Below are positions 2,973 to 6,672 of a DNA stretch of 64,000 nucleotides, piece by piece. The notes under the pieces were generated by a model. That model did not search any database. It was not told the DNA's origin and saw nothing but the letters and a program-made list of their open reading frames with translations. The stretch comes from Escherichia phage APECc02, in the sequence record NC_041869.1, one strand, 5' to 3'. The translations under genes and the position numbers were made by a program. Every line of letters starts with the position of its first letter. Position 1 is the stretch's first letter.

Positions 2973-3323
2973 ATGAAAGATGGGGATAAGCTGCTATATC
3001 TTAAAGTCCCCCTTGAAATACTGTCTATGTCAAAAGTTTTGAATGACACAACTGGGGAGGTTGTTGTTCTTGACTTGTATGACAAGATCGTATACTGCTA
3101 CCTGCACAACTGGTATAAGCTTGGAGGAAGTTCACGCTTCACACCCAGCACAAGGAAAATTGCAGCAGATGTTGGGATAAAGAAAACAAAAGCAGCAGCG
3201 TGCGTTAAAACTTTAGAATGTGCAGGAGTGGTTGAAATATCCACACAAGGGAGAGGTAAAAGATGCACATTTTCCAAAGTTTTGCCACCAGAAGAGGTTA
3301 TTCGAATGTCAACAACTGGTTAG
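2973..3323 (+). CDS. hypothetical protein, possible DNA-binding (helix-turn-helix-like segment)
   Basis: 116 aa ORF immediately upstream of iteron array; segment TPSTRKIAADVGIKKTKAAACVKTLECAGVVE resembles HTH. Confidence 0.4.
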   Translation: MKDGDKLLYLKVPLEILSMSKVLNDTTGEVVVLDLYDKIVYCYLHNWYKLGGSSRFTPSTRKIAADVGIKKTKAAACVKTLECAGVVEISTQGRGKRCTFSKVLPPEEVIRMSTTG

Positions 3324-3397: not shown

Positions 3398-3480
3398 CTG
3401 TCCGTGATACGGACACTACTGTCCGTCACGCGGACACATCTGCCCGTAATACGGACACTAACTGTCCGTGATACGGACAC
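3398..3480. repeat. array of four 17-bp palindromic sites TGTCCGT-N3-ACGGACA at 21-bp spacing (iterons/operators)
   Basis: Copies at 3398-3416, 3419-3437, 3440-3458 (one arm degenerate CTGCCCGT), 3462-3480; followed by an AT-rich tract 3481-3600. Confidence 0.75.
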
Positions 3481-3983
3481 ATAAAGAATATAACTAAAAT
3501 AACTAAATAATAAAAAATAAAAGATCTAGTACTTATGGTACTAAGTACATATACTTAACTTATGTAGAATATACTAGATCCTAAGTACCATGTTTTAAAT
3601 TTATTACTTACTATGGGTAGTGTCGGCCCTTCATTGGCACTCGCCTACGAGGGGCGAGATGCCGGGCCTCCCTGGTGCACACAATAACAGAAGTGCATAC
3701 ATGCAGGTCTGTTAACATGTGTGGGAGCGAAGCGATAGCGCAGGCCAAAGGCCGAGCACTGATGTGGACCACCGACGAAAGCTTGCCAGCGCCGTAAGGA
3801 GTCGGTTGAGAGTCTCCCGCGCGAGCTTGGATGAAGTTTATGTGTGGAAACGGACAAGAAGGCCCCTAAATCGCTCCACAGCTATATAAACTATACCAGG
3901 TAAGGCAATCGCACCAGTTTGATAGAAAAGCTCGTTACAAAGCGATACAGTGAGTTTTTCTATAACTTGAAGAGGAGGTAGTT

Positions 3984-4572: not shown

Positions 4573-4761
4573 ATGAACAATCCGGTAGCAAAGAACTGTA
4601 ATAAATTCAACAAGTCTGCGATTCACACTGACAGGAAAAAGAGTTGGTTTCCTGACATTGACGAGGAGCTTGAGAGTTACTTTGAAGATTTAGTCACCAA
4701 TGCAGAGGAGGTTGCGATTAAAGAATACGCAGACAGGAGGGATAAGGCCGGAATCTGTTGA
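4573..4761 (+). CDS. hypothetical protein
   Basis: ATG 4573 preceded by GAGGGG; 62 aa. Confidence 0.4.
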   Translation: MNNPVAKNCNKFNKSAIHTDRKKSWFPDIDEELESYFEDLVTNAEEVAIKEYADRRDKAGIC

Positions 4762-4786
4762 CAAAAATAATGTTACCTGATAAGAT
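4758..4786 (+). promoter_or_regulatory. sigma70-like promoter TTGACA-17-TAAGAT
   Basis: -35 4758-4763, -10 4781-4786, upstream of 4838 gene. Confidence 0.45.
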
Positions 4787-4837
4787 CTGCAATATGATGT
4801 GATACAATTTTAACTTACGAGGTCTACAGGTAATGCT

Positions 4838-5080
4838 ATGTTTAAGGTTAAGCTCGTTTTTCGTTCCATGAATGAGGATTATTTAGAAGATGAAGGTGAA
4901 TTTCGTGCACTGGATGATGCAATAGATTTTGCCAACGACTTAGCTTGTATGAATACGGGTTATGGGCTATGCTGTTGGGATGGTGGTGTTCAGATCGGTG
5001 ATAGCAAGATCTTCTACTTCTACCCTGAGCCCGATAACAAACAAATTAAGTATGTTTTATTTATTTGTGCTTTACAATGA
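4838..5080 (+). CDS. hypothetical protein
   Basis: 80 aa ORF. Confidence 0.45.
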   Translation: MFKVKLVFRSMNEDYLEDEGEFRALDDAIDFANDLACMNTGYGLCCWDGGVQIGDSKIFYFYPEPDNKQIKYVLFICALQ

Positions 5081-5367
5081 GGTTGTTTTCGTGTATCATG
5101 ATGAATATCCAATTTAAAGATGAATTTGATGGCTTTATCTCCGGATGCTTTGAAACAGGGTTCGGAGAAGGCTGAGTTACCCTTAGAGGGCTTGATAGTG
5201 CACCACACTTAAAATGGTAGGGGCAGCCAGCACATGACGATGTGACCCCAGCCAACCTGTAATAAGGTCGAGCCAAAGCGCGGTAATGGGCTCTGGTAAC
5301 CCACTTGTTGGGTCTTGCTGGTCCAGGACGCTGGACAAGTCGCAGGGAATACCACCCTGCGGCGAAC

Positions 5368-5396
5368 TTGACAATCAGTATTTGCTATGATAAAAT
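5368..5396 (+). promoter_or_regulatory. sigma70-like promoter TTGACA-17-TAAAAT
   Basis: -35 5368-5373, -10 5391-5396, 29 nt upstream of ATG 5425. Confidence 0.5.
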
Positions 5397-5424
5397 CCAC
5401 CTATCACGTGATAATGGAGGAAAC

Positions 5425-5763
5425 ATGGCGGATACAACTAAAAAGCGTCGCCGTAGAGGCAGACCTCTGAAAGAGGAGTCCAACGCCATTCAGCTAGAGA
5501 AGAACATCCTTGATATGAAGGAATCTTTTATAGCGATGGTTCCAGAAGCTCACAAAGTTTTAAGAGAGCTGATGTTGGACCCGAAAACCAAACAAAATAT
5601 TCGTCAAAGCATTGCAGAGTATGTTCTTGATAAGGCAGACCGAATGCAGGAAGAATATGATGAGATGTTTGGTGAAGAGGAAGAGGTGGTAGTAGAAGAG
5701 GCTGAAAAACCAGCACCTTTTATGCCATTTACCACAGAAATACAGCCTGTTGGCAATAGTTAA
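5425..5763 (+). CDS. hypothetical protein, basic N-terminus (KKRRRRGRP) and acidic C-terminus
   Basis: ATG 5425 with GGAGG RBS; 112 aa. Confidence 0.5.
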   Translation: MADTTKKRRRRGRPLKEESNAIQLEKNILDMKESFIAMVPEAHKVLRELMLDPKTKQNIRQSIAEYVLDKADRMQEEYDEMFGEEEEVVVEEAEKPAPFMPFTTEIQPVGNS

Positions 5764-5772
5764 AATATTTTC

Positions 5773-5801
5773 TTGACAAACTTTGCTTAACAGTGTAATA
5801 T
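5773..5801 (+). promoter_or_regulatory. sigma70-like promoter TTGACA-17-TAATAT driving tRNA array
   Basis: -35 5773-5778, -10 5796-5801. Confidence 0.5.
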
Positions 5802-5859
5802 TGTAAACATGGTCTCCCACCTTTTCTGGCGGCTAAGGTGTAAAAGAAAGCCACCCAGT

Positions 5860-5934
5860 GCCCTGTTAGCTTAGTGGATAAAGCAGCGGCCTTCTAAGCC
5901 GTTGACACTGGTTCGAGTCCAGTACGGGGTGCCA
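5860..5934 (+). tRNA. tRNA-Arg (anticodon TCT)
   Basis: Manual cloverleaf fold: acceptor GCCCTGT/ACGGGGT, anticodon loop CTTCTAA, T-loop TTCGAGT, encoded CCA. Confidence 0.8.
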
Positions 5935-5938
5935 AATT

Positions 5939-6025
5939 GGGGAGTTATCCCGTAGAGGTAGCGGTGTAGACTGTAAATCTATTGTCATTGCGACTCGGGT
6001 GGTTCGACTCCACCACTCCCCACCA
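5939..6025 (+). tRNA. tRNA-Tyr (anticodon GTA), long variable arm
   Basis: Acceptor GGGGAGT/ACTCCCC, anticodon loop CTGTAAA, T-loop TTCGACT, encoded CCA. Confidence 0.8.
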
Positions 6026-6139
6026 AATTTACATTTTTAAATGCATAAATCATACAGATAATGGCATTGATATTTATCGTCGTTTATACTAGTCACTAAC
6101 TGCTCGAAAATCAGTGTCATTATCAGTATTGTTTATAAA

Positions 6140-6230
6140 TGAGGGTAGGGAGCAATGGTGCTCAAGCGGTCTTGAAAACCGTCCCGTTGAGGATGACTCG
6201 ATGATGGTTCGATTCCATTACCCTCAGCCA
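6140..6230 (+). tRNA. tRNA-Ser (anticodon TGA), long variable arm
   Basis: Acceptor TGAGGGT/ACCCTCA, anticodon loop CTTGAAA, T-loop TTCGATT, encoded CCA. Confidence 0.7.
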
Positions 6231-6328
6231 TATTGTTGACCTTGTAATTAAGCGAAAGCCGGAAGCAGAACCGGATTATCAAATGTTACAGTCGTCATCG
6301 CCGACTAGCAACATGGTCAACATACTGA

Positions 6329-6427
6329 GCTAGGTAAGCCCTTTGGCAAGGGCGAGGATTTTTAATCCTGAAAATAGACGAGGTAGTCGTTGAATACATA
6401 GGTGGTTCGATTCCATCACCTAGCACC
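6329..6427 (+). tRNA. atypical tRNA-like gene (possible tRNA-Lys TTT variant or pseudogene)
   Basis: Perfect acceptor GCTAGGT/ACCTAGC, D-arm GCCC-TTTGGCAA-GGGC, T-arm GGTGG-TTCGATT-CCATC, but anticodon arm is AGGA-TTTTTAA-TCCT (4-bp stem) or 5-bp stem with 5-nt loop, then about 30-nt extra arm; only CC encoded at 3' end. Confidence 0.35.
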
Positions 6428-6432
6428 TTTTT

Positions 6433-6508
6433 GCTGATGTAGCACAATTGGTAGTGCAATTGATTTGTAATCAATAGGTTGCAGGTTCGAGTCCTGCTAT
6501 CAGCACCA
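6433..6508 (+). tRNA. tRNA-Thr (anticodon TGT)
   Basis: Acceptor GCTGATG/TATCAGC, anticodon loop TTTGTAA, T-loop TTCGAGT, encoded CCA. Confidence 0.8.
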
Positions 6509-6509
6509 T

Positions 6510-6584
6510 GGCCCTGTAGCTGGAAGGTTCAAGCAAGCGACTCATAATCGCCAGACGGTGGTTCAATTCCACCCAGGGCCACCA
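6510..6584 (+). tRNA. tRNA-Met/Ile2 (anticodon CAT)
   Basis: Acceptor GGCCCTG/CAGGGCC, anticodon loop CTCATAA, T-loop TTCAATT, encoded CCA. Confidence 0.75.
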
Positions 6585-6595
6585 AATAATAAATA

Positions 6596-6672
6596 CTCCG
6601 CGTAGCTCAGCTTGGTAGAGCGCCTGATTTGGGATCAGGAGGTCGAGTGTTCGAATCACTCCGTGGAGACCA
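6596..6672 (+). tRNA. tRNA-Pro (anticodon TGG)
   Basis: Acceptor CTCCGCG/CGTGGAG, D-stem GCTC/GAGC, anticodon loop TTTGGGA, T-loop TTCGAAT, encoded CCA. Confidence 0.75.

What the first reader, a model, noticed from the sequence alone, without database searches (positions are those of the whole stretch)
5150..5370. Second GC-rich non-coding island before a consensus promoter
Seen in sequence: about 220 bp of elevated GC with hairpins (for example CAGGGAATACCACCCTGCGG) between a small ORF and the TTGACA-17-TAAAAT promoter of the 5425 gene; overlapping antisense ORFs lack start signals. Possibly a small RNA or regulatory leader paired with the 3600-3900 island.
Basis: inference. Interest (0 to 1): 0.35.

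Follow-up and report, generated by a model that had tools for sequence, protein, structure and literature searches.

The report
Conserved phage RNA three-way junction motif
The GC-rich gap holds a small folded RNA, absent from the RNA family catalogue, whose 43-base core is nearly identical in rV5-like, T4-like and several unrelated phages and usually sits beside phage tRNA genes; its function is unknown.

Summary
Window 5150-5370 has 54.8% GC against 44.1% overall (z=3.0). It lies between a 33-codon ORF and a TTGACA-17-TAAAAT promoter and contains the quoted hairpin. The window is a Vequintavirus (rV5-like coliphage), and no genome record annotates the gap.

The composition is not the main point. 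Window 5250-5292 (+) is a 43-nt motif that is 90-97% identical in T4-like phages, 150-kb Escherichia, Shigella and Pseudomonas phages, N4-like Klebsiella phages, a 45-kb coliphage and several metagenomic phages. It matches no Rfam 15 family and was not found in 185,579 representative genomes or 5,426 complete E. coli genomes.

It folds as a three-way junction:
- The closing helix covaries perfectly: 33 distinct sequences, 100% paired, every pair changed on both sides, with G-U pairs that fix the strand.
- Divergent second copies give compensatory changes in the other two helices.
- The junction strands (CGA, GGUAA) and a bulged G are invariant or nearly so, while the hairpin loops vary.

In every non-T4 lineage but one it lies in or next to a co-oriented tRNA array. 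In T4 it lies under the annotated N-terminus of Vs.8, which is probably a mis-annotation.

Best reading: a stable structured small RNA expressed with the phage tRNAs that binds a conserved host factor. The mechanism is inferred. The proposed link to the 3600-3900 island is not supported.

The parts
5250..5292 (+). Core 43-nt three-way-junction motif. P1 = 5252-5254 with 5287 and 5289-5290, G5288 bulged. P2 = 5255-5258 with 5265-5268, loop GUAAUA. J2/3 = CGA 5269-5271. P3 = 5272-5274 with 5278 and 5280-5281, triloop 5275-5277, bulge C5279. J3/1 = GGUAA 5282-5286.
   Evidence: blastn to T4-like and other phages. Column-pair scan. Pair counts: 330 of 330 cells paired, and all 3 P1 pairs have changes on both sides. 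Compensatory P2 and P3 changes in the second copies of L069 and L071. Model R1 scores 66.4 bits here and finds a single copy in the window.
5220..5249 (+). Upstream stem / internal loop / stem hairpin. Outer stem GGGG/CCCC (5220-5223 with 5246-5249). Inner stem CACAU/AUGUG (5231-5235 with 5240-5244). Loop GACG. Seven-nt 5' internal loop CAGCCAG.
   Evidence: Read from the sequences. The L055 lineage has GGAAC/GUUCC and CUACG-GACG-CGUAG in the same place. T4 has GGGAA/UUCCC with CCUCAU/AUGAGG, and L020 has GGGAG/CUCCC with CCUCA/UGAGG. L059 has GUGUAU/AUACAC. RNAalifold recovers part of the outer stem with compensatory changes.
5180..5219 (+). 5' block CCCUUAGAGGGCUUGAUAGUGCACCACACUUAAAAUGGUA, including the small hairpin CCC/GGG (5180-5182 with 5188-5190). 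It is nearly invariant between Vequintavirus and the L055 lineage. GGCUUG (5189-5194) is complementary to CGAGCC (5269-5274).
   Evidence: Alignments A2 and A3. RNAalifold and the unconstrained MFE prefer the GGCUUG/CGAGCC pairing. That complement is present only in the vequinta-type lineages and does not vary, so it is untested.
5293..5336 (+). 3' part. CUGG 5293-5296 is a tentative pseudoknot partner of CCAG 5227-5230. Hairpin CCCA/UGGG 5300-5312. Hairpin GUCCAG-GACG-CUGGAC 5321-5336.
   Evidence: Alignment A3. The 5300-5312 hairpin is deleted in L057, so it is dispensable. The L055 lineage has GCUGG-AGACGGA-CCAGC in place of the 5321-5336 hairpin. The pseudoknot was seen by eye in several lineages but is not significant in a duplex-energy test.
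5341..5361 (+). It has no U tract and is specific to Vequintavirus.
   Evidence: Sequence. Absent from L055, L066 and L052. Not called as a terminator.
5368..5396 (+). Sigma-70-type promoter TTGACA-17-TAAAAT for the 5425-5763 gene. It marks the right boundary of the element.
   Evidence: Annotated as P74 in rV5. An equivalent promoter follows the element in the L055 lineage, and a TTGACA -35-like hexamer follows it in phage Ivi.
5071..5099 (+). Candidate upstream promoter TTTACA-17-TATCAT that could drive the element. The alternative is read-through from the promoter at 4758-4786.
   Evidence: 10 of 12 matches. Consensus match only. The L055 lineage has a clearer dedicated promoter, TTGACA-N16/17-TATACT, about 45-50 nt upstream of the conserved block.
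5116..5136 (+). Invariant 21-nt block AAAGATGAATTTGATGGCTTT upstream of the element. It is part of the 33-codon ORF here and an 8-codon mini-ORF (MKDEFDGF) in the L055 lineage. Its relation to the RNA is unknown.
   Evidence: Alignment A2. Not followed up.

Best explanation
Window 5180-5365 (+) encodes a structured non-coding RNA. Its functional heart is a 43-nt three-way junction (5250-5292), preceded by a covarying hairpin (5220-5249). The helices serve as scaffolding and their loops vary. The junction strands CGA and GGUAA are invariant and the bulged G nearly so, so they probably form a specific binding surface or pocket. I propose, by inference, that the RNA is made as part of or next to the phage tRNA transcription units. 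The nucleases that mature the neighbouring tRNAs would release it as a stable RNA of roughly 100-200 nt. It would then act in trans, binding through its junction a component that is conserved across gammaproteobacterial hosts, most plausibly from the tRNA or translation machinery, as a decoy or modulator. Shown here: the motif, its fold, its strand, its phage-only distribution and its association with tRNA clusters. Inferred: transcription and processing, action in trans, and the nature of the partner.
For: (1) Cross-family conservation. blastn finds the core at 90-97% identity in T4-like phages and in a Pseudomonas phage (679 records matched the gap in all, 117 of them full-length vequintaviruses). 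It is also in N4-like Klebsiella phages and 150-kb coliphages, the 45-kb phage Ivi and metagenomic phages.
(2) Fold. All three P1 pairs are paired in 33 of 33 distinct sequences, with 2, 5 and 4 pair types. 28 cells are changed on both sides, against 6.2 +/- 1.9 in shuffles (0 of 500 shuffles reach the observed value). Only 21-38% of cells pair when the partners are slid. Ivi adds a further P1 variant, CGG/C(G)CG. The second copies in L069 and L071 change P2 from ACCU/AGGU to GCCU/AGGC and P3 from GCC/GGC to GUC/GAC.
(3) RNA, on the + strand. P1 contains U-G and G-U pairs, which would be mismatches on the other strand. The motif is co-oriented with the flanking genes and tRNAs in every lineage.
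(4) tRNA association. The motif lies 40-730 nt from, or inside, a co-oriented tRNA array in the window (tRNAs at 5860-6672) and in L004, L028, L055, L059, L061, L063, L064, L066, L070 and L076. In L059 it fills the gap of about 110 nt between a tRNA and a tRNA-like gene.
(5) Stand-alone units. The L055 lineage has a dedicated promoter. In Ivi the element lies between two intrinsic terminators, and in L028 a terminator follows it by about 80 nt.
(6) No protein gene is shared among the neighbourhoods of different lineages, which argues against a cis regulator of one gene family.
(7) The motif was not found in bacterial genomes.
Against: There are no expression data, so transcript ends and stability are unknown. 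In T4-likes the motif is 6-8 kb from the tRNA cluster. There it always sits 92-119 nt upstream of a start codon and has its own conserved 3' domain, which looks more like a leader. Phage Ivi has no tRNA in the 6 kb examined. In the window the comparative fold is 13 kcal/mol less stable than the unconstrained MFE, which pairs GGCUUG (5189-5194) with CGAGCC. No binding partner is identified. The resemblance to the 16S 530 loop is a post-hoc lead, and the motif model does not score helix 18. The 33 sequences represent only about 10 independent lineages.
Confidence: 0.4

Rival explanations
1. It is a cis-acting regulatory RNA. It would be either a riboswitch-like aptamer or an RNA-polymerase- or ribosome-binding element, such as a processive antiterminator of the HK022 put type. 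It would control expression of whatever lies downstream: vs.8 in T4-likes and tRNA arrays or early genes elsewhere.
For: The anatomy fits an aptamer: a compact junction with invariant unpaired nucleotides, variable loops and a possible pseudoknot. Tandem copies occur upstream of vs.8 in L069 and L071. The distance to the vs.8 start codon is constant at 92-119 nt, with a conserved 3' domain. The motif often lies upstream of tRNA arrays and just after a promoter. Intrinsic terminators lie downstream in L028 and Ivi. In the vequinta lineage an alternative pairing, GGCUUG with CGAGCC, competes with P3.
Against: The downstream genes are unrelated across lineages. In the window, the L055 lineage and Ivi, a strong promoter or -35-like site sits between the element and the next gene, so most downstream transcripts would not carry it. 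In L028 and L059 it lies after the tRNAs. No terminator or Shine-Dalgarno-sequestering platform is shared: downstream terminators occur in 2 of 19 representatives. The anti-core complement is present only in the vequinta-type lineages.
Confidence: 0.25
2. It is a self-cleaving or otherwise catalytic RNA of a new class that helps cut polycistronic tRNA or early transcripts.
For: It has a three-way junction with invariant junction nucleotides and a location inside tRNA arrays. From general knowledge, small ribozymes such as hammerheads and HDV-like 'theta' ribozymes occur next to phage tRNAs.
Against: No known ribozyme family matches, even at E<=10. My remembered resemblance to the twister CCCAAGC/GGUAA strands fails, because the 'CAA' is a freely variable triloop and the 'UAAU' lies in a variable hairpin loop. 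Nothing marks a cleavage site.
Confidence: 0.08
3. It is a DNA-level element: a homing-endonuclease target, a recombination or packaging site, or a hitch-hiking fragment spread by horizontal transfer, with no RNA function.
For: Near-identity across unrelated phages suggests horizontal transfer. Homing endonucleases are common in phage tRNA regions, for example segB in T4.
Against: Compensatory and wobble (G-U) changes keep an asymmetric, strand-specific fold. Orientation relative to transcription is constant. The loops vary while the stems and junctions are held, which a protein-recognised DNA site would not predict. No endonuclease gene is consistently adjacent.
Confidence: 0.05
4. The composition reflects a small protein-coding gene on one of the two strands. 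Candidates are the antisense ORF 5183-5374 or, in T4, the N-terminus of Vs.8.
For: ORFs of 34-63 codons overlap the island. T4 NC_000866 annotates Vs.8 across the motif. Antisense ORFs over the core recur in six lineages.
Against: 14 of 16 T4-like representatives have an in-frame stop between the motif and the vs.8 start, and the phase varies (92-119 nt). The family profile phrog_1488 covers only the short Vs.8. The window + frame that matches T4's has a stop just upstream of the core and no start before the ATG inside it. Variation is not three-periodic and instead falls on loops and on covarying pairs. The antisense 'family' simply mirrors the nucleotide conservation, and the variable triloop would change its residues non-conservatively.
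Confidence: 0.02

Closest known systems
Phage T4 stable RNAs species 1 and 2 (rnaC, rnaD) in the tRNA cluster
   Same: They are small non-coding RNAs of unknown function encoded with phage tRNA genes and, from established T4 literature, matured with them. That matches the genomic setting of this motif in most lineages.
   Different: There is no sequence or structural similarity. The rnaC and rnaD sequences were read, and model R1 finds nothing in the T4 tRNA region L081. In T4 itself the motif lies elsewhere, between denV and vs.8. This motif spans many phage families.
Riboswitch aptamers built on three-way junctions (purine or TPP type), as a general architecture
   Same: A short closing helix, two hairpins, invariant junction nucleotides, variable loops, a possible pseudoknot and occasional tandem copies.
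   Different: No Rfam riboswitch model matches. There is no consistent downstream gene class or expression platform. Hairpins P2 and P3 are only 4 and 3 bp long. No ligand is known.
16S rRNA helix 18 ('530 loop')
   Same: E. coli 16S reads CCAGC-AGCC-GCGGUAAU. The motif reads CGAGC-C-NNN-G-N-GCGGUAAU. The local layout is the same: helix, 3-nt 5' strand ending in A, a small G-C/C-G-closed hairpin, a 3' strand GGUAA, then helix.
   Different: The resemblance was recalled from memory and then checked only by eye. The motif has an extra hairpin (P2) in the 5' strand, G where 16S has C519, and no 505-507/524-526 pseudoknot, since its triloop is variable. Model R1 does not score helix 18. An 8-mer match to rRNA is not improbable by chance.
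HK022 put / processive antitermination RNAs
   Same: They are phage-encoded folded RNAs that act on a universally conserved host machine. Some copies of the motif lie just upstream of terminators (L028, Ivi).
   Different: There is no sequence relation. Most copies have no downstream terminator. Copies occur after or inside tRNA arrays.

Membership tests
Any Rfam 15 family (4227 models) | Covariance-model score at or above the family's gathering threshold | tested here: not met
   No match overlaps 5081-5424 at gathering thresholds or at E<=10. The homologous elements in 8 other loci also gave nothing.
tRNA / tRNA-like gene | Cloverleaf detected by ARAGORN or by Rfam RF00005 | tested here: not met
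   The window tRNAs are called only at 5860-6672. The motif has three helices of 3, 4 and 3 bp and no T or D arm.
Riboswitch | Conserved aptamer fold supported by covariation | tested here: met
Riboswitch | Recurrent position in the 5' UTR of functionally related genes | tested here: not met
   No gene family is shared downstream across lineages. Copies lie after or inside tRNA arrays. A promoter intervenes in the window.
Riboswitch | Expression platform (terminator or Shine-Dalgarno sequestration) coupled to the aptamer | tested here: inconclusive
   Terminators lie downstream in only 2 of 19 representatives. T4-likes have a conserved 3' domain of unknown role. An alternative pairing is present only in the vequinta-type lineages.
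Riboswitch | Specific ligand binding | not testable with these tools
   Needs in-line probing, ITC or similar.
Known self-cleaving ribozyme classes (hammerhead, twister, twister-sister, pistol, hatchet, HDV-like) | Match to the class consensus or covariance model | tested here: not met
   The nucleotides that resemble twister fall in variable loops.
Known self-cleaving ribozyme classes (hammerhead, twister, twister-sister, pistol, hatchet, HDV-like) | Site-specific self-cleavage | not testable with these tools
   Needs an in vitro transcription and cleavage assay.
T4 rnaC / rnaD stable RNAs | Sequence or structure homology to rnaC or rnaD | tested here: not met
   The sequences were read. R1 has no hit in L081.
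T4 rnaC / rnaD stable RNAs | Encoded within or next to a phage tRNA array, on the same strand | tested here: met
   Met for the window and 10 other non-T4 loci. Not met in T4-likes or in Ivi.
Intrinsic terminator | GC-rich hairpin followed by a U tract | tested here: not met
   No + strand terminator is called in 4600-6100 or within +/-500 nt of the motif. The 5341-5361 hairpin is followed by GCGAACUU.
Small protein-coding gene | Open frame with a start signal that is conserved in relatives, with codon-like variation | tested here: not met
16S rRNA helix 18 mimic | Shared sequence and local secondary structure of the 530 internal loop | tested here: inconclusive
   A(G-C, C-G hairpin)GGUAAU is shared. 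The model does not score helix 18, C519 is replaced by G, and the pseudoknot is missing.

The most novel reading that the evidence does not exclude
The 43-nt junction is the sensor or active core of a new functional RNA class shared by T4, rV5, N4-like and other virulent phages. It could be a new ligand-binding (riboswitch-like) or catalytic RNA. It could also be a molecular mimic, for example of the 16S rRNA 530 loop or of a tRNA 3'-end-binding GGU loop, that titrates a host translation, tRNA-modification or anti-phage factor. If so, it has gone unnoticed in T4 because it was annotated as the N-terminus of Vs.8.
Probability: 0.25. Interest if true: 0.85.

Novelty: new member of a known kind. 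Interest (0 to 1): 0.6.

Why it matters
Only a limited set of structured RNAs has been described in virulent phages: tRNAs, introns, a few small RNAs and the large GOLLD and ROOL RNAs. Here a 43-nt junction stays almost unchanged in phages that share essentially nothing else: Straboviridae, Vequintavirinae, 150-kb coliphages, N4-like phages and a 45-kb phage. It was not found in bacterial genomes. That pattern implies a strongly selected interaction with something common to their hosts. The element is present in T4 and in rV5-type therapeutic phages, so it is directly open to genetics: a deletion between denV and vs.8, or compensatory P1 mutants. It also has immediate annotation consequences. 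The T4 Vs.8 start is probably wrong, and hypothetical ORFs called over the motif in many genomes are probably spurious.

Tried and rejected
- Rfam gave nothing at gathering thresholds or at E<=10, on the window and on 8 homologous loci.
- Remembered resemblances were checked against the observed variation and dropped:
  - Twister (CCCAAGC...GGUAA): the relevant bases lie in variable loops.
  - The tRNA-Tyr D loop and anticodon loop (CGAGC..CCAAAG, CUGUAA): the bases are variable and in the wrong order.
  - The THF riboswitch and the RNase P GGUAA loops: no model hit.
  - T4 rnaC and rnaD.
- The 16S helix-18 resemblance is kept only as a lead.
- A pseudoknot between the loop of the upstream hairpin and the segment 3' of P1 looked convincing by eye in several lineages. 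A duplex-energy test was significant (p about 0.03) in only 2 of 19 representatives, so it is reported as tentative.
- A long-range CCAGC/GCUGG helix in the vequinta lineage overlaps P1 and the upstream hairpin, and in the L055 lineage GCUGG forms a local hairpin instead. It was rejected as part of the main fold.
- The GGCUUG/CGAGCC 'anti-core' is present only in the vequinta-type lineages and never varies.
- No conserved protein partner was found among neighbouring genes. Pfam and PHROG searches of the flanking genes were uninformative.
- The genome-contig scan gave only chance hits in GC-rich coding DNA.
- One viral scan was wasted on a pattern with the wrong spacer length.
- Six literature searches found no description, including searches for the sequence itself. 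One more failed on a too-short term.
- No similarity exists between this island and the 3600-3900 island.

Full report
**What the window is.** Megablast of 4800-5800 finds 153 phage records at 95-99.9% identity, almost all Vequintavirus (rV5-like coliphages). In rV5 the finding lies in the unannotated gap between gp071 (window 4838-5080) and ORF 74 (window 5425-5763). ORF 74 has an annotated sigma-70 promoter, and the phage tRNA array follows (window 5860-6672). Some relatives annotate a 33-codon ORF at 5077-5175, or extend ORF 74 to a TTG at 5305.

**Checking the observation.**
- GC content of 5150-5370 is 54.8% against 44.1% for the window (z=3.0). Only 0.28% of equally long windows reach this value.
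- The quoted hairpin is at 5343-5362.
- The TTGACA-17-TAAAAT site is at 5368-5396.
- Antisense ORFs with TTG and GTG starts overlap the region.
- Folding energy of the whole gap is only about 2 sd better than shuffles, and equally so on both strands.

The description is accurate, but composition and hairpins alone would not make the region special.

**The key result.** A sensitive blastn of the gap matched 679 phage records. Of these, 117 are full-length vequintavirus matches. The rest match only about 43 nt, window 5248-5290, at 90-97% identity. They are T4-like phages of Escherichia, Shigella, Yersinia, Salmonella and Klebsiella, plus a Pseudomonas phage.

- In T4 the match lies between denV and vs.8.
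- In Salmonella S16 it lies upstream of the Vs.8 homologue.
- In Pseudomonas phage PsgM04F it lies inside the tRNA array.

Pattern scans of IMG/VR and of metagenomes added further lineages (sequences):
- L028, a 96-kb contig
- L055, L066 and L052, a divergent 130-kb vequinta-like lineage
- L059
- L061, L064, L070 and L076, 46-kb contigs
- L063, a 70-kb contig
- L079, a 75-kb contig

Named relatives include the N4-like Klebsiella phages Pylas and KpCHEMY26, the 146-151-kb phages DE16, phiWec188/190 and SF1-1, and the 45-kb coliphage Ivi. A scan of one genome for each of 185,579 bacterial and archaeal species returned only chance hits in GC-rich coding DNA. blastn found nothing in 5,426 complete E. 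coli genomes. The single 'plasmid' hit is 137.6 kb, the size of a vequintavirus genome, and is presumably one mislabelled. On these searches, the element is confined to phages.

**The fold.** I anchored 36 distinct sequences on the invariant core and scanned all column pairs. The three bases just 5' of ACCU pair with bases 1, 3 and 4 after GGUAA in every sequence. On the 33-sequence, 43-column alignment A1 the model is P1 (3 bp with a bulged G), P2 (ACCU/AGGU with a 6-nt loop) and P3 (GCC/G-N-GC with a triloop and a one-base bulge).

- All 330 of 330 cells are paired.
- All three P1 pairs change on both sides. Their pair types are CG/GC; CG/UA/GC/AU/GU; and AU/UA/CG/UG.
- 28 cells are changed on both sides, against 6.2 +/- 1.9 in shuffles (0 of 500 shuffles reach the observed value).
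- Only 21-38% of cells pair when partners are slid by 1-3 columns.

P2 and P3 never vary in this set. A covariance model built from A1 (R1) found divergent second copies in two T4-like contigs. L071 has P3 as a perfect GCC-CGC-GGC. L069 has P2 as GCCU/AGGC and P3 as GUC/GAC. Both are compensatory changes. Phage Ivi adds another P1 variant, CGG/C(G)CG. The variable positions are the P2 loop (GUAAUA, AUAAUA, GUAAAA, GUAGAA, GUGAAA, GUAGCA, GUAACA), the P3 triloop (any sequence) and the P3 bulge (C, U or A). The junction strands CGA and GGUAA are invariant, and the P1 bulge is G in 32 of 33 sequences. The U-G and G-U pairs in P1 are valid only for + strand RNA. In window coordinates the core is 5250-5292, and R1 finds only this copy in the 64 kb.

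**Periphery.**
- A hairpin precedes the core in most lineages, and its stems covary:
  - Window: GGGG/CCCC around CACAU-GACG-AUGUG (5220-5249).
  - L055 lineage: GGAAC/GUUCC around CUACG-GACG-CGUAG.
  - T4: GGGAA/UUCCC around CCUCAU/AUGAGG.
  - L020: GGGAG/CUCCC around CCUCA/UGAGG.
  - L059: GUGUAU/AUACAC.
- In the vequinta lineages a 40-nt 5' block (5180-5219) and a second GACG-loop hairpin (5321-5336) are also conserved.
- The 5300-5312 hairpin is deleted in one relative.
- A pseudoknot between the loop of the upstream hairpin and the bases 3' of P1 can be drawn in many lineages. Examples are CCAG/CUGG here, UGAGG/CCUCA in L055, CUCCGG/CCGGAG in Ivi and CGGA/UCCG in the PsgM04F group. A duplex-energy test against shuffles is not significant, so I report it only as tentative.
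- A caveat applies to the window. The nearest-neighbour MFE (-68.9 kcal/mol) prefers to pair GGCUUG (5189-5194) with CGAGCC rather than form the comparative fold (-55.6 kcal/mol). That complement is present only in the vequinta-type lineages and does not vary.

**It is not coding.**
- T4 NC_000866 annotates Vs.8 as 219 aa starting upstream of the motif.
- The PHROG family covers only the 179-aa form.
- In 14 of 16 T4-like representatives an in-frame stop lies between the motif and the conserved start. The distance varies from 92 to 119 nt, so the phase is not kept.
- In the window the corresponding frame has a stop just upstream of the core and no start before the ATG inside it.
- The antisense ORFs that cluster across lineages overlap the core and only mirror its nucleotide conservation.
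- Variation falls on loops and on covarying pairs, not on third codon positions.

**Context.** In the window and in ten other non-T4 loci the motif is co-oriented with a phage tRNA array. It lies 40-730 nt from the array or inside it, sometimes before the tRNAs, sometimes after them and sometimes between them.

- In L059 it fills the gap of about 110 nt between a tRNA and a weak tRNA-like gene.
- The L055 lineage has a dedicated TTGACA-N16/17-TATACT promoter about 45-50 nt upstream of the conserved RNA, and the next promoter follows directly after it.
- In Ivi the element sits between two intrinsic terminators, and in L028 a terminator follows it.
- In the window there is no dedicated consensus promoter. 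Candidates are 5071-5099 or read-through from 4758-4786.
- No protein family is shared among the neighbourhoods, and the flanking window genes have no informative domains.
- In T4-likes the motif is 6-8 kb from the tRNA cluster. It lies in the vs/regB region and carries its own conserved 3' domain.

**Comparison with what is known.** No Rfam 15 family matches the element in any lineage. Literature searches, including searches for the sequence itself, found no description. The closest analogues in genomic setting are the T4 species 1 and 2 stable RNAs, but they are unrelated in sequence. The architecture resembles small three-way-junction aptamers. From memory, then checked against E. coli rrsH, the P3-plus-junction segment A-GC..GC-GGUAAU matches the internal loop of 16S helix 18, the 530 loop CCAGCAGCCGCGGUAAU. 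However, the model does not score helix 18, one loop base differs and the rRNA pseudoknot is missing. This is a lead and not a finding. A single-stranded GGU next to a helix is also how RNase P L15 and T-box bulges bind tRNA 3' ends (established knowledge). That is a second untested lead, which fits the tRNA context.

**Interpretation.** Four things are well supported (about 0.9): the island encodes a functional structured RNA on the + strand, its core is the junction at 5250-5292, it belongs to a widespread phage-only family, and it is not in Rfam. How it works is inferred.

1. I favour (about 0.4) a stable trans-acting small RNA produced with the tRNA transcripts. Its invariant junction would bind a conserved host component, probably from the translation or tRNA machinery.
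2. The main rival (about 0.25) is a cis-acting element of the riboswitch or antiterminator type. The T4 arrangement and the tandem copies support it, but the unrelated downstream genes, the intervening promoters and the copies placed after tRNAs weaken it.
3. A new ribozyme (about 0.08), a DNA-level site (about 0.05) and a small protein (about 0.02) are less likely.

That island occurs only in Vequintavirus, lies beside iteron-like repeats and a replication-initiator gene, and shares nothing with this element.

**Verdict.** This is a real and previously unannotated RNA family with clear comparative support and unknown function. It deserves experimental follow-up, which is easiest in T4.

Noticed in passing
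window 5116-5136: The 21-nt block AAAGATGAATTTGATGGCTTT is invariant between Vequintavirus and the divergent L055/L066/L052 lineage, although the flanks differ. There it is an 8-codon mini-ORF (MKDEFDGF, with a Shine-Dalgarno sequence) that abuts the -35 of the element's promoter. Here it lies inside the 33-codon ORF 5077-5175. It could be a peptide or a nucleic-acid signal.
   Followed up: no
window 3400-3480 and 3600-3900: Four iteron-like copies of CTGTCCGTGATACGGACAC follow the replication-initiator-like gene (2973-3323), so this is probably an origin. The adjacent GC-rich island (53.8% GC) occurs only in Vequintavirus. rV5 annotates a 56-codon ORF in it.
   Followed up: partly
window 6329-6427: A 99-nt atypical tRNA. 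ARAGORN reports a 4-base anticodon loop reading, the Rfam tRNA score is only 35.5 bits, and it is annotated 'tRNA-Stop(tta)' in phage JLBYU08. It may be a suppressor or an intron-containing tRNA.
   Followed up: no
L003 2491-2601 / L060 (T4 NC_000866 64792-64912): The annotated N-terminal ~40 residues of T4 Vs.8 overlie the RNA motif. Most T4-like relatives have in-frame stops there and the family profile covers only the short form, so the T4 start codon is probably mis-assigned.
   Followed up: yes
L064 8440-9300 (-), also L061, L063, L070, L076: The 46-70-kb phages, which include the Klebsiella phages Pylas and KpCHEMY26, have a non-coding array of about 0.8 kb upstream of their tRNAs. It is built of cassettes bounded by GUUGUGAC...GUCACAAC and AAGAGCAYU...AGUGCUCUU stems. 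One cassette holds the motif, and others contain tRNA-like T arms that ARAGORN does not call.
   Followed up: partly
L069 5095-5248 (-), L071 9023-9177 (+): Two tandem copies of the motif, about 110 nt apart, lie upstream of the Vs.8 homologue in some T4-like phages. The second copy is divergent and carries compensatory changes.
   Followed up: yes
T4-like loci, e.g. L003 2545-2600, L006, L012: The T4-like versions carry a conserved 3' domain, AUGGA...GCCA-NGGAA-UGGC-CCC, between the motif and the start codon. The GGA-in-loop hairpin resembles CsrA binding sites, but that is from memory only.
   Followed up: no
L028 12784-13079: A group I intron (Rfam RF00028, 54 bits) lies in the 96-kb metagenomic phage that also carries the motif. 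rV5 itself annotates its large terminase as joined from three pieces.
   Followed up: no
window 5236-5239 and 5327-5330: Both hairpins that flank the core in the vequinta lineages have GACG in the loop. The L055 lineage has CUACG-GACG-CGUAG and GCUGG-AGACGGA-CCAGC. This may be a shared protein or tertiary contact.
   Followed up: no
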